The position numbers and the translations under genes were made by a program. This document shows, piece by piece, positions 4,448 through 61,584 of a stretch of 64,000 nt of DNA (position 1 is the first letter of the stretch; each line of letters opens with the position of its first letter). Source of the DNA: Squalus acanthias. Its lineage: Eukaryota. The notes beneath the pieces are model-generated. The model was given only the letters and a program-made list of their open reading frames with translations. It did not search any database and had not been told where the DNA came from. Location of the stretch: positions 57,722,001 through 57,786,000 of the forward strand of contig CM059427.1 of assembly GCA_030390025.1 (NCBI GenBank). The letters run 5' to 3'.

Positions 4448-7400
4448 GGGAATGGTAGCGTAGTGGTTATGTTACTGGACTAGTGATCCAAAGGCCTGGA
4501 CTAATGATCTGGAGACATGAGTTCAAATCCCACCACGGCAGCTGGGGAATTTAAATTCAGTTAATTAAATAAATCTGGAATAAAAAGCTAGTTATCAGTA
4601 ATGGTGACCATGAAACTATCAGATTGTTGTAAGAAACCCAATCTGGTTCACTAATGTCCTTTAGAGAAGGAAATCTGCCATCTTTACCTGGTTTGGCCTA
4701 TATGTGACTCCAGACCCACAGCAATGTGGTTGATGCTTAACTGCTCTCTGACTAGCAAGCCACTCAGTTGTGAAAAATGGGACGGACCACCCAGCATCCA
4801 CCTCGGCACTGGTTACGGACACGACAATGGCACACCCAGCCCAGTCGACCCTGCAAAGTCCTCCTCACCAACATCTGGGAACTTGTGCCAAAATTGAGTT
4901 ATCCCACAGACTAGACTAGTCAAGCAACAGCCTGACACAGTCATACTCACAGAATCATACCTTTCAGCCAAGCTCCTCCATCACCATCCCTGGGTGTATG
5001 TCCTGTCCAATCGGCAGGACAGACCCACCAGGGGTGGTGGCACAGTGGTATACAGTCGGGAAGGAGTGGCCCTGGGAGTCCTCAACATTGACTCCAAGCA
5101 TGTGCAAGGAAACATCCTGCTGATTAGTACCTACCGCCCTCGCTCAGCTGATGAATCAGTACTCCTCCATGTTGAACACCACTTGGAAGAAGCACTGAGA
5201 GTAGCAAACCACAGAATGTACTCTGGGTGGAGGACTTCAATGTTCACCACCAAGAATAGCTCGGTAGCACCATTGCCGGCCGAGTCCTGAAGGACATAGC
5301 TGCCAGTCTGGACCTGTGACAGGTGGTGAGAGAACCAACATGAGGGAAAAACCTACTTGACCTCGTCCTCACCAATCTACCTGTCGCAGATGCATCTGTC
5401 CATGACAGCACTGGTAGCAGTGACCACCGCACAGTCATTGGGGAGACGTCTTCACACTGAGGACACCCTCCATTGTGTTGTGTAGCACTACCACCGTGCT
5501 AAATGGGATAGATTCAGAACAGATCTAGCAGCTCAAAACTGGGCATCCATGAGGCGCTGTGGGCCATCAGCAGCAGCAGAATTGTATTCCACCACAATCT
5601 GTAACCTCATGGTCTGGCATATCCCTCACTCTACCATTACCATGAAGCCAGGGGACCAACCCTGGTTCAATAAGGAGTGTAGAAGAGCATGCCAGGAGCA
5701 GCACCAGGCATACCTAAAAATGAGGTGCCAACCTGGGAAAGCTGCAACACAGGACTACATGCATGCTAAAAAGCGGAAGCAGCATGCTATAGACAGGGCT
5801 AAGCAATCCCACAATCAACGGATCAGATCAAAGCTCTGCAGTCCTGCCACATCCAGTCGTGAATGGTGGTGGACCATTAAACAACTAACGGGAGGAGGAG
5901 GCTCCATGAATATCCCCATCCTCAATTATGGTGGAGCCCAGCACGTGAGTGCAAAAGACAAAGCTGAAGCATCTTCAGCCAGAAGTGCCGAGTGGATGAT
6001 CCATATCGGCCTCCTCCTAAAGTCGCCACCACCACAGAAGCCAGTCTTCAGCCAATTCGATTCACTCCACGTGATATCAAGATATGGCTGAGCGCACTGG
6101 GCCCCGACAACATCCCGGCTGTCGTGCTGAAGACTTATGCTCCAGAACTAGCCGCGCCTCTAGCCAAGCTGTTCCAGTACAGCTATAACACTGGCATCTA
6201 TCCGACAATGTGGAAAACTGCCCAGTTATGTCTTGTCCACAAAAAGCAGGACAAATCCAATCCGGCCAACCGACTAATTACCGCCCCATCAGTCTACTCT
6301 CAATCATCAGCAAAGTGATGGAAGGTGTCATCGACAGTGCTATCAAGCAGTACTTAATCACAAATAACCTGCTCACTGATGTCCAGTTTGGGTTCCGCCA
6401 GGACCACTCAGCTCCAGAACTCATTACAGCCTTGGTCCAAACATGGACAAAAGAGCTGAATTCCAAGGGTGAGGTGAGAGTGACTGCCCTTGACGTCAAG
6501 GCAACATTTAACCGAGTGTGGCATCAAGGAGCCCTAGTAAAACTGAAGTCAATGGGAATCGGGGGGGGAAACACTCCACTGGCTGGAGTCATACCTAGCA
6601 CAAAGGAAGATGGTTGTGGTGGTTGGAGGTCAATCATCACAGCCCCAGGACATCGCTGCAGGAGTTCCTCAGGGCAGTGTCCTTGGCCCAACCATCTTCA
6701 GCTGCTTCATCAATGACATTTCCTCCATCATAAGGTCAGAAGTGGGAACATTCGCTGATGACTGCACAGTGTTCAGTGCCATTCGCAACTCCTCAGATAA
6801 TGAAGCAGTCCATGCCCGCATGCAGCAAGACCTGGACAGCATTCAGGCTTGAGCTGATAAGTGGCAGGTAACATTCACGCCACAGAAGTGCCAGGCAATG
6901 ACTATCTGCAACAAGCAAGAGTCTAACCACTGCCCCTTGACATTCAACGGTATTATCATCGCCGAATCCCCCACCATCAACATCCTGGGGGTCACCATTG
7001 ACCAGAAACTTAACTGGACCAGCTACATAAATATGGGTATTCTGCGGTGAGTGTCTCACCTCCTGACTCCCCAAAGCCTTTCCACCATCTACAAGGCACA
7101 AGTCAGGAGTGTGATGGAATACTCTCCACTTGCCTGGATGAGTGCAGCTCCAACAACACTCAAGAAGCTCGACACAACCAAGACAAAGCAGCCCGCTTGA
7201 TTGACAGCCCATATACCACCTTAAACATTCATTCCCATCACCATCAGCGTACTGTGGCTGCAGTGTGTACCATCTACAAGATGCACTACAGCAACTCGCC
7301 AAGGCTTCTTCGGCAGCACCTCCCAAACCTGCGACCTCTACCACCTAGAAGGACAAGGGCAGCAGGTGCATTGGAACACCACCACCTCCAAGTTCCCCTC

Positions 7401-7629
7401 CAAGTCACACACCACCCTGACTTGGAAGTATATCGCCCTCCCTTAATTGTTGCTGGATCAAAATCCTGGAACTCCCTCCCTAACAGCACTATGGGAGTAC
7501 CTTCACCTCACGGACTGCAGCAGTTCAAGAAAGCAGCTCACCATCACCTTCTCAAGGGCAACTAGGGATGAGCAATAAATGCTGGCCTTGCCAGCGACAC
7601 CCACATCCCATGAACGAATAAAAAAAAAA
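4448..7629 (+). mobile_element. Degenerate CR1/L2-group LINE (APE endonuclease + reverse transcriptase) with a tRNA-derived SINE-like 5' head
   Basis: Frameshifted ORFs carry endonuclease motifs (RQDRPTRGGGTVVY, TYRP) and RT motifs (NYRPISLLS, QFGFR, GVPQGSVLGP, FADD), ending in KAAHHHLLKGN, a 3' tail and poly(A). Pol III A box at 4456-4466 and B box at 4521-4529. Confidence 0.95.
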
Positions 7630-8945: not shown

Positions 8946-9894
8946 CAATCATTGAATTTACCCGCAGAGCTTGCCTGAGGTGTTTTTAAAGTGATGTTTT
9001 GCTTTGGGATGTTGTCTCTTTAAACCCCTTGACTATTGAAATTCACAGTTTACAAATGTACTTTCCTTCCATGGAAAAAAAAATCTTTCTTTTAATATTG
9101 CAGAATATTACACAGTACAATTAAATGAAAAGTAAAGAAAGGCAAAAGACTCCCGGAGTTACAGCGCTCTGTAGAGAGATGGCGAGAATACAAATGTGTG
9201 TTCCTTTCTTGTCGTCTTTTGCTGATTAAATTCTACAGTAGAAGTGGTGGCGTTAAAGTCTGGCTTGGGTGGGCCAGCAGAAAAAGGCACTTCTCCTTAA
9301 CACCAAATGCATCTAGAAAAGTAATAATTGCGGAGTAATTTGCCGGATTATTTCACTGAAGAATTCTTCTTTTACTTTCAGCTTAGCTTTTGACTGCTCA
9401 CATCAGCAGCCATTATCCTAGAAGTCGGGAATCTCAGCAATGCACGGAACAATTATTCTACAACAGAGCTGTGACAAGGACTGGGGTGCTGAAGGTGGGC
9501 GGCACGGCATAATGGAACCACTGTTGCAGTATACACACTTATTGTGGAGCCTGAGCTTGCCAAAGTGTAAATGCCTGCTTTTCTTCCAAGCACAGAAGCT
9601 AAATTATACAATCGCGAAATTCAGTAAGAAGGTCAGTCTGACGGGGTGATTGGTAGCGACAGAAGCTGGCAGCATCACAGTGCTGAACACTGAGGTTACT
9701 CTGTGGCATGTACTGCAGGTGTACCATCATCTACTCAATACCAATCGTTAATGAATCCAGCGAAAGAATGGAGAGTTTCCTGTCCCTTTTTACAGTTACA
9801 GAGGAGAGCGTGTTTTTTTTTGTTAAAGATGCTTATTTTTTTCCTGATGCACTTTACAACAGAATTTCAGCTTCAGCGACATGAGCACAAAGGC

Positions 9895-9955
9895 TAGGCT
9901 GACACTCCCAGTGCAGTGCTGAGGGAGTGCTGCACTGTCGGAGGTGCCGTCTTTC
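9895..9955 (+). mobile_element. Deu-domain SINE fragment abutting a CR1 fragment
   Basis: GGCTGACACTCCCAGTGCAGTGCTGAGGGAGTGCTGCACTGTCGGAGGTGCCGTCTTTC matches the recalled Deu SINE body. Confidence 0.75.
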
Positions 9956-10635
9956 GTTGCACTCCCTCTATGGCAAGTATATCCTTCCTCAGGTAAGGAG
10001 ACCAAAACTCCAGGTGTGGTCTCACCAAGGCCCTATATAATTGCAGTAAGACGTCTTTACTCTTATACTCAAATCCTCTTGTAATAAAGGCCAACATACC
10101 ATTTGCTTTCCTAATTGCTTGCTGTACCTGCATGTTAACTTTCAGTGATTCGTGTACAAGGACACCCAGGTCCCTCTGAACACCAACATTTCCCAATCTC
10201 TCACCATTTAAAAAATACTCTGCTTTTCTATTTTTCCTACCAAAGTGGATAACTTCACATTTCTCCACATTATATTCCATTTGCCATGTTCTTGCCCACT
10301 CACTTAGCCTGTCTATATCCCCTAGAAGCCTCCTTGCATCCTCCTCACAACTTACATTCCCACCCAGCTTTGTATCATCAGCAAACTTGGATATATTACA
10401 TTTGGTCCCCTCATCCAAATCATTGATGTAGATTGTGAATAGCTGAGGCCCAAGCACTGATCCTTGCAGGTACCCCACTAGTTACAGCCTGCCAACCTGA
10501 AAATGACCCGTTTATTCCTACTCTCTGTTTTCTGTCCGTTAACCAATCCTCAATCCATGCTAGTATATTACCCCCAATCCCATGAGCCCTAATTTCGTTT
10601 AATGTGTGGCACCTTATCGAATGCCTTCTGAAAAT
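9956..10635 (-). mobile_element. CR1 LINE internal RT fragment
   Basis: ORF 9894-10478 contains QGSVLGPQLFTIYINDL, KFADDTKLGG, WQMEYNVEKCEVIHFG and LYRALVRPHLE, typical of CR1 RT. Confidence 0.95.
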
Positions 10636-28836: not shown

Positions 28837-30439
28837 TTATAACCGCATAAATAAAAATATAAATCGACATCACCCAGGAGTGTGCTATAGGCTGAGATCT
28901 GGCCTTGAAGTCCAGATGACTTTTTATAAACTACTCAAGCTTTACTTTCATGGTTAGTCGCATCACTCTTTGCCTCTCAATTCAGTAACCCAGGTATGCA
29001 ATATTCTGTCTTAAGTGGTAGAGGAGGCTGCTTTTCGCTGTAAAGCTATTACTCAGACCACTAAGGTTTCTGAGTCTTATCTACACGGTTAGTAATTTGA
29101 TACCCAATGTGTTTTTCAAAATTTAATTCAGGGTGTTTTCAGTTCAGTACTGAATGATCTTTTGTTTTCAACTGTAACGGCGCAATTAAACAAACTCTCA
29201 AGATGGGGAGTCAAGGGGGATGAGTTGACTCTGGGTGTGGAGGGAGAGGGGCAACAATGGTGCTCGATGTTGTATTGTCACACACAGATGTAGCGTGACA
29301 GGACACAGGCTTGACATCTGTTGTGACTTCCAACTGGTTCATACATTTATCCCACCTCTGACTCCTAAAAGGAACTAATCATGAATTTACATGGCAAAAG
29401 TCTTAGAAAAGGACAAAAAGATTTCTGCCGCAACATATCTGCATATTGTGGCATGAAAATCCTCCAACATGTGACATTAATAAAGGTCATGCTACTCACC
29501 ACTACCGTGTGAACATTTATATGTTACATATAATTAAGGATGTTATTTTATCAGCAGGTTATGGAGGTCACAAGTCCTCTGAATTTGTACCTGATCTGTG
29601 GTTCTTAACCTTGCTGCGTAAAAATTTGCTTTTAAAAAAAAAAATTACATTGTGTGTACAAAATTGACTCGAACAACGGGTCTGATTTTTTTTGTTTTAA
29701 ACTCTGAAATGCAGTTGTTTTCTTGCCAAATTGTGTTACCAATTATTGTGAAAGAGCTGTACAGACTGTGAAATAAACTGACATTTATAGGATAGTTTGT
29801 GCTATGTGTGTCTCTCCCCCTCCCCCAGTTACATGGTGCAACAGAGATAAGTCACGGCAAAAGCAACACAGATTTGCTTGTAAATAGGGTCTGTGACAGA
29901 CCATGGGTTTTGACATTTGGTGCCATTACCGGACTGCGATTTCAATTAAAAAAAATAGACTGTAACGAAACGACATCCTCGTTTATAATAAAAGACAGCC
30001 ATGTGCGAGGTATAAGGCAGTTACATAATCGGCGGTTTGAGATCATCTCCTACGTTTGCACAGTTTACAACATCTGGACGGCTCAGATCTTCAAATCGTT
30101 TTATACACAGTCGTTCGTTTTTGTTAATTTAAGTAAAATTGCAGTGATTTATTCATTTAAAGAATATATACAACTGCAGTAGTTATGAAAATAATAGTCA
30201 CAATGAATTCTTCCTTACATTCTGCAGCTATTAATGCGATATAAGCAAACACACATTTACCAGTGTGTTGTGATGGAAATAAAAGCTAGTAAGTGACTGA
30301 GTGCTACTTCTTCTCGCTGATAGGAGAAGCACAGGTGTGGCTTTTACCCCTCTTTACTTATTCAGCAGGGCTGGGGCCTCTGCCCTGCTTGTTTGTGCCT
30401 TGAGGAAGCAGGAGTGCTTGCTGGTAGCTCAGAGACACC

Positions 30440-31098
30440 ATATTCGCCCTTGCCTCAGCTCATTCGCTGCTGAAACCCTCATCCATGCCTTTGTTACCTC
30501 TAGGCTTGACTATTCCAATGCACTCCTGGCTGGCCTTCCACATTCTACCCATCGTAAACTTGAGGTCATCCAAAACTCGGCTGCCCGTGTCCTAACTCGC
30601 AACAAGTCCTGTTCACCCATCACCGCTGTGCTCGCTGACCTACATTGGCTCCCGGTTAAGCAACGCCTCGATTTCAAAATTCTCATCCTTGTTTTCAAAT
30701 CCCTCCATGGCCTCGCCCCTCCCTATCTCTGTAATCTCCTTCAGCCCCACAACTGCCCCCGCCCCCCAACCCCCACCCCGAGATATCTGCACTCCTCTAA
30801 TTCTGCCCTCTTGAGCATCCCTGATTATAATCACCCAACCATTGATGGCCGTGCCATCTGTTGCCTAGGCCCTAAACTCTGGAATTCCCTGCCTAAACCT
30901 CTCCGCCTCTCTACCTCTCTTTCCTCCTTCAAGACGCTCCTCAAAACCTACCCCTTTGACCAAGCTTTTGGTCACCTGCCCTAATTTCTCCTTATGTGGC
31001 TCGGTGTCAAATTTTTTGTCTTATAGCACTCCTGTGAAGCACCTTGGGACGTTTTACTATGGTAAAGGCGCTATATAAATACAAGTTGTTGTTGTTGT
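30440..31098 (+). mobile_element. L2 LINE 3' end
   Basis: Encodes AETLIHAFVTSRLDYSNALLAGLP...LHWLPVKQRLDFKIL...LWNSLP...FKTLLKT, followed by the tail AAAGGCGCTATATAAATACAAG(TTG)n. Confidence 0.95.
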
Positions 31099-53945: not shown

Positions 53946-54155
<210 letters not shown>

Positions 54156-56364
54156 CTTCGGAGAGAGAGAAAAAAATAGAGGGAGCGTTTACAAAAAACA
54201 CACACGCCAACAATGTGTTTTACGGTACTCATTTAAATACTGCCCGCGAAATAAAGCACAGCCCCGGCCACCAGCGCACTCGGCGGACTTGGGCTCCAGC
54301 GATAGCAGAAGCCGGCACCTCTCCCAGCCCTCGGAGCTCTGAACGCACATCGCAACTCTCAGCACTGACTTTATCCCAAAATGTTCCAAACTGGGGCCAT
54401 TGCACGATAGCGGAAAGCCTGCGACTGTCCAAGCACATAAAGGGACCAGGCGGCTGAAATTCGCTTTTATATTATGTTTTTTTTTAAATGCGATTGTTAG
54501 AAAGAAGCATGACTATTTTTTAAGAGGGTTTTTTGTTGTTGTTGTTGCACTTTACTCTTTTGTTTGAGAGAGAGGGAGGGAAACAAGCGCGATCGCTGAC
54601 TTACGAGATGGGAGAGGTGGACAAAAAAAGAATGCACTGACGATCGATGGGGTCGTTGTGTGTGTGAGAACCGGCATCGTGCTGGTTTCCAGGACTTCAG
54701 AAATGTTTGATTTTTATTCCCCCTGACTGTAGGAAACGTGTAATCGTTAAACTACATCAGCATCTGCAACTGGGGTGATGAAAGACAAAGTAACGGTGCC
54801 GGCTGAGATCAGACTCTGTGTCAATCTATGCATTTCCGCCCGTTCTGGAATTTGCACGTTTACCTGCATTTATTTACTTTTTGCAACCAACACCACCCCC
54901 CACCCCCCCTCTCCTCCCCCGCGCCCCCAGCAAATATTACCAATCCTCGTTCCACGCACACACACACACACACACACAGCCCAAAGCATCAAACACCCGC
55001 GATGATTAAAGGTGATTCCGGCTCATGTGGGCAAAGTGTAACTGTAACATGACATGAATGTGGTAATTCCCCCCAAATTTACAGATGTTCCTTTTTTTAT
55101 ATATTTAAAACACACACACACACACACACACAGATTGATTTACGCCCTGCAAATGATGGCAACCGATGGCAGGAAACGTATGATTTTAAAACCTGCTTTG
55201 TTGTGAATTCAAACTGAAACGAAACTGACAAATGGGGGGAATCCAGGCATTGCTCTAAAAAAAGGTTCGCATCAGATAAACCAGCAGCGCACAGAAACTG
55301 TATGTTTAATAGCTGATATTTATTCCAGTACATTGTATATATGAAAGTCCGACCACACTCCACACAAGCAAAAAAAAACCCACAGCAACAAAGACTTTAG
55401 GATCACTCAAAAAATGGCCAGTCCGACTTATCTTATGTAATAAAGTCACATAAGCGACCAAGCATGTCATAGTGAAAAATGCCATCAGTGTGCCACACAT
55501 AACAACTGCACTTTCTTTTTTACTTACTCGAGTGAAGGGAAGAAAAAAATAAACAATTGCGACTACCTCCTACACAATGAATCACACTTTTAACACCATC
55601 CGCTCCCCTGAATTCTGATCAGAACTGACTTTAGTAATAATTCGCCTTCAACACCAACCCAACTTTCACTTCTGTCATTACAATTGATTTTTGTTACCCC
55701 CCCCCCCCCCCCCACCCCCCCCCCCCCCCACAACCCCTGAAGTTTGCTAGGGTTTTTTTTTTAACGCGGAGAGCAAGGCAAAAAGAAAGTAGAAACACCG
55801 CATAGTTCAAAAAGGGATTCAAAGTTTTGGTAACACATCCATTCACAGCAATAGGGGGATCCGGACTGTTTCAGTTTGTTGTAAATTACAAAAACAAAAC
55901 CGTGGCTTCCCATAAATCCTCTACAATAAGAAATATTCTGTCGCTCTTTTAAATCCCTCGAAATTTCCGTCTTTAAATGAGAGCCACAGTGAGGAGGGGA
56001 AACGCATCGAGAGAGTCAGTCGCACTGTCGCAGCAGGTAACGGTCCACTTGAATAATCCATTCCTCACTAAAATAACAAAAGCCAACAAACGAGAAACAC
56101 ACGCGAGCTGGACAAGAGAGAATTGCAATTTTCCTAAAGGATTCCCACGAGCTGACGGACTTGCTTTATTTTTCTCCATCAACACCTTTTTTTTTTACAC
56201 CTGGATGTCAGGTACTTTAACAAAGTTTTGCACCCAAAATGCAAACAGCATTAAGAGGAGGAACGGATGAAATTCACAAAAGTTTATTTCCTCGCGCGTA
56301 TTTACAAATACCTGCACACAAAATCTATCTATGTATATTATAGATATATAAATGTATAAAATAC
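54156..56364 (-). other. ZEB2: ZEB2 intron 1 (2209 nt, within the 5' UTR)
   Basis: GT..AG between the two exons. Its size is similar to the ~2.5-kb mammalian 5' UTR intron. Confidence 0.8.
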
Positions 56365-56725
56365 CTGCTCTGTCCTGGCTGTGTTGTTTAGTAAGACTGG
56401 TAGGAGATCGGCAGCGTGGAGATGAAGGAGCATGAAGAGCAAGACGAGGTTTTTTTAAAAGGGGGAGAGAAAAAAACCTTTAAAGACTTGAGGAAGGACC
56501 GTTATTCCTGCTGTGCAGGTTAGAACTGATCGCTCCGTTGTCTCCCACACCAGGAAACACAACCTGTGGACGGACTGACGTGTTCCGCTTGTTGGAATGA
56601 CATTTTTCTATAAAGAGAGTCCCTGAAGTGCGGCCCCAGAAACGCACGCCACCTATCTTCGTGGTAAGGGATAATTGAAGATCCGTAAACGTGATCATCG
56701 GTAGAAGTGACGTTTTCAAACATTT
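56365..56725 (-). other. ZEB2: ZEB2 non-coding exon 1 (5' UTR); 5' boundary approximate
   Basis: Donor GAGCAG|GTATTT at 56365/56364. The blocks CTTCAATTATCCCT, AAGATAGGTGGCG, AAAAATGTCATT, AACACGTCAGTCCGTCC, GTGTTTCCTGG and GATCAGTTCTAACCTGC..GCAGGAATAACGGTCCT match the human ZEB2 5' UTR as I recall it. Confidence 0.85.
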
Positions 56726-57799
56726 TTCTGCCTCTCTCTCTCTGTCCAGTACGAATCTGGATTAAATTACCTTTACATTCGCGGCCATCATCAGAGGAAG
56801 GGGAAGGGTGGCGGGGAGTGGAAATGCAGATGCCCCTCTCCCTCGTTCGACGTAAGAGTGAAATTGCACCATTCTTACATGGCTAGCTGTATCTGAAAGT
56901 ACAGATCACACAGCCCCGTGCCACTCAGTGACTTCAACAACAACAAAAAAACTCCAGCCCTTTTCAACTCTTGCTCGCTCAGAGATGCAGTGGGATAGAC
57001 GGATGCATCGCTATGTAACCAGCCTCCCAGATGCGGCTGCCGATCGGATCGGATCTTCCCCTGGCTTTTGCCAGTGATGTTACTTAAATGACATGTTTTA
57101 TTTCGCAGAAAGTTGGCGGCTCGCGTCTCATTTTTGCTTTGCACCAGCCCAATAGTCTGAATCTTCTCATCCCGAACTGAAATTTCGACATTGATCCCCC
57201 CCCCCCCGCCGTTGTAAAATGCTGAACGTTTCGCAATAACTCGAAACTTTCACCATATTCAGAAACTTTGATCTTGTTTTGTTTTAGAGATTTCAAAGCA
57301 CACGAGCATCGTGTTCTTTTTCGCCTTATTAAAAAAATGCCCCAGGACCCTTGCAGTCTATTCCCTCCCAGTGTCTGATTGGTAACCTACCTTTAACTAA
57401 AGAGCTCGCCCTTAAACATCAACCGCTAATGATTATTTAAACTACTGCCTTAACCTCTAACCCTAAGTAACTGATCTAATAAAAAAAGGAGGGGGCAATT
57501 CTCCGGAGTGAAAGGCACTGGCGGATAAAGGGTTAACGCGCTCTGTTGACGAAGTTCTCCTGAAACAGGAAACAAACCATTACCTGGTTTTAACATAACG
57601 ATTGGGATTCGTGAGGTTGGAAGGATATAAAAGCGATTATATTTGGGTTTGTGGCGTGTGGTTCTGAAGTGCTTATGTGCGTATATACCGCGCCAGTGTG
57701 TCTATGTGATTTTCCCCCCTTTTTTTCCCACTAGTTGTACATTTCCAAATATCTGCTTCTCCCTTGTTTCACATCGATACCAAAAGCTCAGCCTCCGCG

Positions 57800-58330
57800 G
57801 TGCAACCATTGGCTCCGTGACAGTCCCAAGCTGCCCTGCCTTGACATGTCGCTAACTCCTGTTTGGCTAATTAAGTTTTCAATCACCAGACATTGGGTAA
57901 TAATAAATCAGATTGATCATTTATCGGAGCCAGTCAGTTTGTTTTTGCAGGAATAGGCGGGGCCCAGAGGTTTTTGGGGATGCACAACTTTTGAGATGTT
58001 GTGGGTTTTTGGAACGAAATGTAAAAGTGGGTTCCCTGGAGATCTTGAGAAAGTCCTGATTCCCGAGATGTTTTTCTTTCATTCCTGTAATTATTCTAAC
58101 ATTGCTGGTTAAAGGTAGCAGGATCTGGTTGGCTACATCGGTCGGGCGTGTGAAATGTTTGAACAAAATGACCTGGTGCATGGGGATTCTGCCGAAATGT
58201 AAACCAAATCTCTGGACTTTCAGAGCAAAATCTCCTCCAGTCCTGTCCGGGGGAAGTTCAGTGTTCACTGCCAGAGTTTATCCAGTACCAAGGCCAGAAG
58301 TCAATCAGCTGTCTTTTAATACAGAACTTT
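57800..58330. promoter_or_regulatory. Candidate upstream conserved element
   Basis: TGACAG/TGACAT (MEIS), TAATTA and ATAAATCA (PBX-HOX) about 1.1-1.6 kb upstream of exon 1. Confidence 0.45.
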
Positions 58331-59062
58331 TCTAAATCATTTTTTTTCCTGCTGCAACATAACACGATAAAAGAATACCCAGGATGGGTATAAAATGGTG
58401 AAAATGGAGTCAAGCACTTAAGAGCCTTAGTCACACACCAGGTCCAAGTGATTCTAGTAATGCTGCTTTCAGGAGCTGCTTCTTTTCACTTAGATAGAAT
58501 AAATTTTGTCTGCATGTAACTCTTTAAAATGAATTTTCCTTTTGATGCATACTGTAAACCCATTCGTTTTTTGGGAGAGTGGTGGTGGTGGCGGGGGGGG
58601 GGGGGGGGGGGGGGGATCGTATTGTATTAAGACTGCATTCCTGGGAAAGACTAGTTTACTTCAGTGAGTAGGACTGAGCTTTCAAATGATAAATTGTGCA
58701 AGACTCGGTAAGTGCAATGGCAAACTGTGGGTGTAATCCCATGAGTAGAGAGCAGACTGGTTCTCCCTTGAGCATAATTACAATAGGATGGCTTTCAGTT
58801 ACTTTTTAAAGAAGGACTCTTATCATCAGCCCCTCGTTTAAAAATCAAATGATTAAAGAGACTAATGATTCACTTGAAAACAATTTTTTTCAGGCTAATT
58901 CTGTTGATGTATTTTGCAATATTTTTTGTTTAAATGGTGGACCGATGACCTAATCGGGGAAACTCTCTCAGAGAAGTTTATTGAGTCTAACAGTATGAAG
59001 GACTTGATTTAACATCAGCAAAGGTACAGTCATCAAATGGTATCTCAGCAATGTTGTAAAAT

Positions 59063-60800: not shown

Positions 60801-61000
60801 TCTTTCAGTCTGTGTTAGGTTTTAGAATGGTATGACTTTGCGCGTCATGCGGCTCGTGACTGGGATAAACACCTTCAACAGATCTTTCTACCTAAATCCC
60901 AGGGAGCCAGCGGTAAACTTGAGGTAGGGAGCCAGTTTGGAATCCAGCTAAAACGTCTGTTGACTGCAGCAGCCTCAGCAAGTTTGGGCACAAATCAGAG

Positions 61001-61584
61001 GCGAGTGTCTATCCTCCTGACTCCCCAAAGCCTTTCCACCATCTACAAGGCACGAGTAAGGAGTGTGATGGAATCCTCTCCACTTGCCTGGATGAGTGCA
61101 GCTCCAACAACACTCAAGAAGCTCGACACCATCCAGGACAAAGCAGCCCGCTTGATTGGCACCCCATCCACCACCTTAAACATTCACTCCCTCCACCACC
61201 GGCGTACCGTGGCTGCAGTGTGTACCCTCTACAAGATGCACTGCAGCAACTCGCCAAGGCTTCTTCGGCAGCATGTTCCAAACCCGCGACCTCTTCCACC
61301 TAGAAGGACAAGGGCAGCAGGCGCATGGGAACACCACCACCTCCAAGTTCTCCTCCAAGTCACACACCATTCTGACTTAGAAGTATATTGCCGGTCCTTC
61401 ATCGTCGCTGGGTCAAAATCCTGGAACTCCCTACCTAACAGCACTGTGGGAGTACCTTCACCACACGGACTGCAGCGGTTCAAGAAGGCGGCTCACCACC
61501 ACCTTCTCAAGGGAAACTAGGGATGGGCAATAAATGCTGGCCTTGCCAGCGATGCCCAGATCCCATGAACGAATAAAAAAAAAA
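61001..61584 (+). mobile_element. 5'-truncated copy of the same LINE family as 4448-7629
   Basis: Highly similar to 7045-7629, with the same KAAHHHLLKGN C-terminus, the tail ...ATCCCATGAACGAAT and poly(A). Confidence 0.95.

What the first reader, a model, noticed from the sequence alone, without database searches (positions are those of the whole stretch)
56030..57950. Plus-strand splice signals suggest a ZEB2-AS1-like antisense RNA covering the exon 1 donor
Established: in mammals a natural antisense transcript masks the 5' splice site of the ZEB2 5' UTR intron, causing retention of an IRES-containing intron. Seen on the + strand: a donor CAG|GTTAGA at 56518/56519 inside the best-conserved UTR block, a strong acceptor TTTTTCTGCCTCTCTCTCTCTGTCCAG ending 56749, a donor GAC|GTAAGA at 56851/56852, and an acceptor TTTGTTTTTGCAG ending 57950. 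Inference: an antisense exon ending at 56518 would overlap the ZEB2 donor at 56364, so the switch might date to the origin of jawed vertebrates.
Basis: partly seen in the sequence, partly recalled or inferred. Interest (0 to 1): 0.7.

Follow-up and report, generated by a model that had tools for sequence, protein, structure and literature searches.

The report
Shark ZEB2 keeps antisense splice donor
At the start of a cartilaginous fish's ZEB2 gene, one opposite-strand splice signal sits where the human antisense RNA ZEB2-AS1 is inferred to begin a short intron, so that antisense RNA likely dates back to the first jawed vertebrates, but no shark transcript has been shown and the other three proposed splice sites score like chance.

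Summary
The window holds the 5' end of ZEB2 (minus strand) in a cartilaginous fish. All four plus-strand motifs are at the stated places, but as a chain they are no better than chance (38 of 66 tiles score as well). One site has outside support. A published, sequenced 73-bp human ZEB2NAT RT-PCR product has primers that map to 56497-56516 and 56651-56670, 174 nt apart here, so the human RNA must lose an intron of about 100 nt. The 56851^57951 junction has no support. The RNA test was uninformative. Verdict: probable shark orthologue of ZEB2-AS1 with a corrected intron (56519-56615); transcription, overlap with the ZEB2 donor, intron retention and IRES are untested, and sense-strand constraint explains the conservation almost as well.

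The parts
54008..54155 (-). ZEB2 first coding exon (start codon at 54080, short leader before it)
   Evidence: Translation reads as the ZEB2 N-terminus (family name recalled); strong acceptor at 54156, score 10.5
54156..56364 (-). ZEB2 5' UTR intron, 2209 nt, 32 ATG; the intron retained in mammals. No IRES shown
   Evidence: boundaries inferred from motifs. A second donor with the same 9-mer lies at 56311
56365..56800 (-). ZEB2 untranslated exon 1; 5' end approximate
   Evidence: Human oligos map inside it; mouse promoter P2 lies about 2.7 kb before the start codon, here about 56780; 7 upstream ATG in 56365-56830
56497..56690 (.). Block conserved with human, read by both strands
   Evidence: Six published human oligos match at 18, 18, 17, 17, 17 and 15 of 20 letters; next best sites 13-14
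56344..56518 (+). Predicted antisense exon that would cover the ZEB2 donor; its start is unknown (56344 is only the nearest, weak acceptor)
   Evidence: 3' end inferred from the human forward primer site 56497-56516; acceptor 56343 scores 1.2; no RNA evidence
56516..56524 (+). Donor CAG|GTTAGA, positional homologue of the human ZEB2NAT donor; also a strong acceptor (dual AG|GT site)
   Evidence: Only good donor of 3 GT in the slot allowed by the 73-bp product: 7.0 against -7.4 and -5.8; only dual site of that strength in the window
56519..56615 (+). Predicted 97-nt antisense intron: branch-point-like CTGAC at 56575-56579, short pyrimidine run, weak acceptor at 56615
   Evidence: Splicing here gives a 77-bp product against 73 bp in human; branch A 37 nt before the AG; acceptor score 3.1, matched by 1247 of 8076 AG
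56616..56690 (+). Predicted next antisense exon (3' end unknown)
   Evidence: Human ZEB2-AS1 primer and ASO targets map to 56643-56690
56723..56857 (+).
   Evidence: no human oligo maps here above background
57938..57950 (+).
   Evidence: Score 10.3, 36 of 8076 AG as good
57208..57902 (.). Zone upstream of ZEB2 exon 1 covered by low-depth contigs in 4 of 4 runs guessed to be RNA; strand unknown
   Evidence: 5 contigs of depth 4-13, one from another species at under 90% likeness

Best explanation
Shown: gene layout, the donor, a branch-point-like motif and a weak acceptor, all in a block conserved with human. Inferred from published primers: the human RNA loses an intron of about 100 nt at this place. 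Inferred by analogy: a rare nuclear RNA starts inside ZEB2 intron 1, runs across the exon 1 donor at 56364/56365, and acts in cis by pairing with nascent ZEB2 RNA, which lowers use of that donor and tunes ZEB2 output. Pairing needs no sequence conservation, since both RNAs come from the same DNA. An IRES in the shark intron is the weakest step (about 0.2).
For: Human ZEB2NAT primers (PMC4725832 Table 1) give a 73-bp product that the authors say was sequenced. They map to 56497-56516 (18 of 20) and 56651-56670 (17 of 20), 174 nt apart. The product has 33 nt between primers; another ZEB2-AS1 primer fills 8, leaving 25, too few for the 26-nt block that human genomic ChIP primers place between them, so the human product is spliced. 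In the allowed slot the shark has one good plus-strand donor, 56519 (chance of such a donor in a 29-nt slot about 0.04), and no usable minus-strand pair (best donor 2.3, best acceptor -3.2). Splicing 56518^56616 gives 77 bp. CTGAC sits 37 nt before that AG inside the 17 of 17 block shared with human (chance about 0.11). Intron length, 2209 nt, and promoter distance resemble mammals. Host: 7 of 8 named hits of a window LINE protein are rays, skates or a chimaera.
Against: The shark acceptor at 56615 is weak (3.1; 15% of AG sites do as well), which is not what selection on this intron would predict. Conservation covers the whole block, exon and intron alike, so it is not specific to antisense splice signals; the CTGAC also reads as a CRE-like TGACGT (motif recalled), and human SMAD3 binds this region. 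The human letters on the intron side of the donor were not seen in any call. The 25 against 26 nt argument has a margin of one letter and assumes colinearity. None of 7 human oligos from the donor-covering part matched the shark above background. A rival plus donor at 56400 (7.1) and a second ZEB2 donor at 56311 blur the overlap. In mouse the antisense RNA is far rarer than Zeb2 RNA and its loss also changes transcription. Exon 1 folds no better than shuffles (z -0.07) and the intron's 3' end folds worse (z +1.82).
Confidence: 0.45

Rival explanations
1. The block is conserved for the sense gene (promoter-proximal factor sites, 5' UTR and upstream ORFs, a minus-strand acceptor). The plus-strand donor rides along, and mammals later used it for ZEB2-AS1; the shark makes no spliced antisense RNA, or only unspliced promoter noise.
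For: Oligos from both the antisense exons and the antisense intron match equally well; weak shark acceptor; SMAD3 peaks over this part of human ZEB2; minus-strand acceptor at 56564 (8.1) at the end of the same block, 7 upstream ATG; antisense overlap is a known confounder in splice-site conservation studies (stated there for coding overlap).
Against: Donor, branch-point-like motif and an AG all keep the human spacing (77 against 73 bp); the dual AG|GT site at 56518/56519 is the only one of its strength in the window.
Confidence: 0.38
2. The RNA upstream of exon 1 and the splice-like density come from alternative ZEB2 first exons on the minus strand (donors 56770, 57390, 57583; acceptor 56564), as with the mouse untranslated exons U1-U9.
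For: Minus donors score 8.2, 10.2 and 8.0; contigs cover 57208-57902 in 4 of 4 runs, and the other species' contig lists no difference at the 57390 and 57583 donors; mouse has nine untranslated exons and three promoters, human a second first exon 2.2 kb away.
Against: Contigs give no strand and may be DNA; three of them run across the 57583 donor unspliced. It does not explain the match of donor 56519 to the human antisense intron, and can hold together with the best explanation.
Confidence: 0.1
3. One reading: plus-strand exons ending 56518, 56750-56851 and starting 57951.
For: Acceptors 56749 and 57950 are strong (9.4 and 10.3); with a weak acceptor at 56615 the shark could skip to 56749.
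Against: Chain at chance level (38 of 66 tiles, 47 of 100 shuffles); human antisense exon sequence lies inside the proposed first intron; no CTRAY-type branch motif 10-50 nt before 56749; stronger plus donors (56664, 8.8) and acceptors (56553, 57108, 57371) are passed over.
Confidence: 0.07

Closest known systems
Human ZEB2-AS1 / ZEB2NAT (HG494679; Gene ID 100303491)
   Same: Same gene, same strand relation; conserved block holds the sites of its published primers and ASO; an intron of about 100 nt at the homologous place; 5' UTR intron of similar size.
   Different: Shark acceptor is weak; the donor-covering 5' part and the last exon show no sequence match; transcription and effect on ZEB2 are not shown.
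Mouse Zeb2os / Zeb2-NAT (NR_110572.1)
   Same: Antisense RNA over Zeb2 exon 1, reported as conserved with human; linked to intron 1 retention.
   Different: Its oligo tables were not held, so no mouse site was mapped; its 3' end lies beyond the Zeb2 pre-mRNA, which here could be the 57200-57900 zone (untested).
Positionally conserved lncRNAs at developmental genes (pcRNA/tapRNA, PMC5853149) and deeply conserved lncRNA splice sites such as megamind (PMC4408788)
   Same: ZEB2-AS is listed among tapRNAs; conserved splice sites are an accepted way to date lncRNAs.
   Different: Those passages cover human and mouse for ZEB2-AS; here the comparison reaches a cartilaginous fish, with one donor and no RNA proof.

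Membership tests
ZEB2-AS1 / Zeb2-NAT orthologue | Lies at the 5' end of ZEB2, opposite strand | tested here: met
   coding exon, 2209-nt intron and exon 1 on the minus strand; predicted sites on plus
ZEB2-AS1 / Zeb2-NAT orthologue | Sequence homology to exons of the mammalian RNA | tested here: met
   4 human antisense oligos map to 56497-56516 and 56643-56690 as best sites in the window; this is also sense exon 1, so it does not prove an antisense RNA; 7 of 7 oligos from the 5' part did not map
ZEB2-AS1 / Zeb2-NAT orthologue | Splice sites at homologous positions | tested here: inconclusive
   Donor 56519 fits; acceptor 56615 fits in place but is weak; 56749, 56852 and 57950 do not fit or have no counterpart
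ZEB2-AS1 / Zeb2-NAT orthologue | Transcribed from the opposite strand | tested here: inconclusive
   Only unstranded contigs were on offer
ZEB2-AS1 / Zeb2-NAT orthologue | RNA covers the donor of the ZEB2 5' UTR intron | tested here: inconclusive
   Needs an exon start before 56364; nearest acceptor 56343 scores 1.2; start site unknown
ZEB2-AS1 / Zeb2-NAT orthologue | Raises retention of intron 1 and ZEB2 protein | not testable with these tools
   Needs knockdown or expression in shark cells
IRES-containing retained 5' UTR intron | Cap-independent entry near the ZEB2 start codon | not testable with these tools
   No Rfam match in the window; 3' end of the intron folds worse than 97 of 100 shuffles; 32 ATG in the intron would hinder scanning
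IRES-containing retained 5' UTR intron | Spliced leader is structured enough to block scanning | tested here: inconclusive
   Exon 1 alone folds like its shuffles (z -0.07); it holds 7 upstream ATG; the joined leader was not folded

The most novel reading that the evidence does not exclude
ZEB2-AS1 is a 450-million-year-old antisense RNA: sharks splice the same short intron from the same donor and branch point as humans, and use the RNA to hold back splicing of ZEB2 intron 1, so this EMT and neural crest switch arose with jawed vertebrates.
Probability: 0.2. Interest if true: 0.6.

Novelty: new member of a known kind. Interest (0 to 1): 0.38.

Why it matters
Few human lncRNAs are traceable beyond mammals, and ZEB2-AS1 is a textbook case of antisense control of splicing whose mechanism rests on few studies. 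A conserved antisense intron in a shark would date the RNA to the root of jawed vertebrates and argue that the RNA itself, not only the act of transcription, is selected. The corrected junction (56518^56616) is a precise, cheap test. If it fails, the locus shows how a conserved sense UTR can fake lncRNA conservation.

Tried and rejected
RNA evidence. One search listed 23 runs, no RNA holder on record (20 guessed RNA), all as contigs. laid 4 of the 23 on 55780-58540: 6 contigs, no joints, no cover at 56152-57174 or 57951-58540. This is no evidence either way: the tool leaves some records out, and three runs hold far more of the stretch's words (0.41, 0.38, 0.34) than was laid (0.14, 0.12, 0.11); the unlaid 0.23-0.27 is near what exon 1 alone would give (0.18), so exon 1 records were probably left out. 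The first coding exon was not covered by any laying, so the ZEB2 exon 1 to exon 2 junction and intron retention stay open.
Vertebrate orthologues. Metagenome scans gave 0 loci and 2 loci that match only the 23-letter pattern: chance. The own genome has one copy of the block, no processed copy. Rfam: 0 matches.
Human oligo mapping. 9 of 13 oligos did not beat background and 7 of 7 from the 5' part did not. A tempting match of ASO-316 at 58472 (14 of 20) ties with another window site and its neighbour primer matches 6 of 22: rejected. A likeness of a human 5' siRNA target to 56182-56203, just before plus donors 56207 and 56212, is not above chance (14 of 14 tiles as good): lead only.
Other. One search stopped on an index slip, rerun. 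(bacterial promoter scan) is irrelevant to this genome. Beltran 2008 was not held; the id I tried for a 17-species lncRNA paper was not held, and its tables, which I recall include a chimaera, may already list this orthologue.

Full report
Setting. The window is C3:57722001-57786000 of a 3.71-Gb genome. A LINE reverse transcriptase frame at 9894-10481 has 20 close relatives; 8 carry names, 7 of them rays, skates or a chimaera and one a bacterial record, so the host is a cartilaginous fish. On the minus strand an exon at 54008-54155 translates to what I recognise, from recall, as the ZEB2 N-terminus. It has a strong acceptor at 54156. A donor at 56364 closes a 2209-nt intron; a review gives 3 kb for the mammalian intron. 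Mouse promoter P2 lies about 2.7 kb before the start codon, which here is about 56780. The region is CpG-rich.

The observation. All four plus-strand motifs and the ZEB2 donor are at the stated places. I scored every GT and AG in the window with approximate splice matrices typed from recall. Each site is good, none rare: 202 of 7337, 422 of 7337, 80 of 8076 and 36 of 8076 sites do as well. The span's own best chain is high on both strands (37.6 plus, 37.0 minus; upper quartile 35.2). The chain alone therefore says nothing.

Correspondence with the human RNA. No vertebrate genome other than the window's own was on hand, and metagenome scans gave 0 loci and 2 chance loci. I therefore mapped short published human oligos. 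A search with window motifs led to PMC4725832, whose Table 1 lists a ZEB2NAT (HG494679) primer pair with a 73-bp product; the methods say products of the expected size were sequenced. The primers map without gaps to 56497-56516 (18 of 20) and 56651-56670 (17 of 20), next best sites 14; the genomic span here is 174 nt. Two human genomic ChIP primers map between them at 56567-56592 (18 and 17 of 20) and cover 26 nt. The 73-bp product has 33 nt between its primers, 8 of them fixed by another ZEB2-AS1 primer, which leaves 25. The block does not fit, so the human product is spliced, losing about 100 nt if the spacing is like the shark's. The strict margin is one letter and colinearity is assumed. 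In the allowed slot the shark has three GT; only 56519 scores (7.0, -7.4, -5.8), and no minus-strand intron is plausible. The forward primer ends two letters before that GT. The human letters on the intron side were not seen in any call.

The corrected intron. Joining 56518 to the first AG after the pyrimidine run, 56615, removes 97 nt and gives 77 bp; the tandem AG at 56617 and 56619 give 75 and 73. A CTGAC with its A 37 nt before 56615 lies in the 17 of 17 block shared with human. The acceptor is weak: 1247 of 8076 AG do as well. Rough chances are 0.04 for a donor this good in the slot and 0.11 for the branch motif. Nothing maps to 56750-56851 or 57951. In all, 4 of 13 oligos beat every other tile, and 0 of 7 from the donor-covering part did.

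Does it cover the ZEB2 donor? In mammals it does, by review and mouse data. Here an exon ending at 56518 must start before 56364. The nearest acceptor, 56343, scores 1.2; plus donors at 56037, 56212 and 56400 offer other paths; 56518 is itself a strong acceptor. A second ZEB2 donor sits at 56311. The overlap is thus possible, not shown.

RNA. The public runs on offer were unstranded contigs. They cover 57208-57902 in 4 of 4 runs and 55796-56077 in one; whether these are RNA, and of which strand, is not known. The test could not speak to the junctions (see Tried and rejected).

Mechanism. Best reading (0.45): a rare antisense RNA starts in intron 1, crosses the ZEB2 donor, splices 56518^56616 and acts in cis on nascent ZEB2 RNA. 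Layout and motifs are shown; the human intron is inferred from primers; shark transcription, overlap and effect are inferred by analogy. Against the full switch: exon 1 folds like its shuffles, the intron's 3' end folds worse, Rfam finds nothing, and in mouse the antisense RNA is much rarer than Zeb2 RNA and its loss also alters transcription. The 32 intronic and 7 exonic upstream ATG show that either leader is hard to scan. The main rival (0.38) is sense-strand constraint: the whole block is conserved, SMAD3 binds it in human cells, a minus-strand acceptor ends it, and the shark acceptor is poor.

What is known. ZEB2-AS1 and Zeb2os are known and called conserved between human and mouse. Searches for a non-mammalian orthologue (listings only) showed no paper on one in fish or sharks; one search returned one chicken genome report that I did not open. 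This is a weak claim: the library lacks most subscription papers, and multi-species lncRNA tables that I could not see may list it.

Papers seen. Passages only: PMC7920574, PMC10229068, PMC5861421, PMC6533490, PMC5102020, PMC6507462, PMC4725832, PMC5853149, PMC4495469, PMC8304685, PMC6466108, PMC4408788. PMC12291489: passages and three supplement rows (no product sizes). PMC5758807: abstract, two of three parts of Results, all Methods, and passages of the review file; its oligo tables were not held and could fix the mouse sites. Beltran 2008 and Nelles 2003: not seen, known through reviews.

Verdict. Observation partly confirmed, interpretation partly supported. Interest 0.38; the boldest reading, a conserved switch from the root of jawed vertebrates, has probability about 0.2 and interest 0.6.

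Noticed in passing
window 56505-56524 (+): 56518/56519 is at once a strong acceptor (10.1) and a donor (7.0), the only dual AG|GT site of that strength on either strand of the window. It could serve as an acceptor for plus donors at 56037, 56212 or 56400, in which case a spliced RNA would skip the ZEB2 donor.
   Followed up: partly
window 56564, 56770, 57390, 57583 (-): A good minus-strand acceptor at the end of the conserved block and three strong minus-strand donors upstream; candidates for alternative untranslated ZEB2 exons.
   Followed up: partly
window 56311 and 56364 (-): Two donors with the same 9-mer 53 nt apart, the inner one directly behind an acceptor-like AG; which one ZEB2 uses is not known.
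   Followed up: no
window 57208-57902: Low-depth contigs in 4 of 4 runs guessed to be RNA cluster here, upstream of exon 1; plus-strand AATAAA at 57478 and 57902. Could be the antisense 3' exon or an upstream sense start.
   Followed up: partly
window 55796-56077: One contig inside ZEB2 intron 1 (run X2), crossing a strong plus donor at 56037 unspliced.
   Followed up: no
window 54000-58000: CpG-rich zone (observed/expected 0.53-0.96 against 0.18-0.49 beyond 58000) spanning both exons and the upstream zone.
   Followed up: no
window 4898-7565, 9894-10481, 30301-30984, 60819-61520: Broken LINE reverse transcriptase frames in ZEB2 intron 2 and upstream; one was used to place the host among cartilaginous fishes.
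   Followed up: partly
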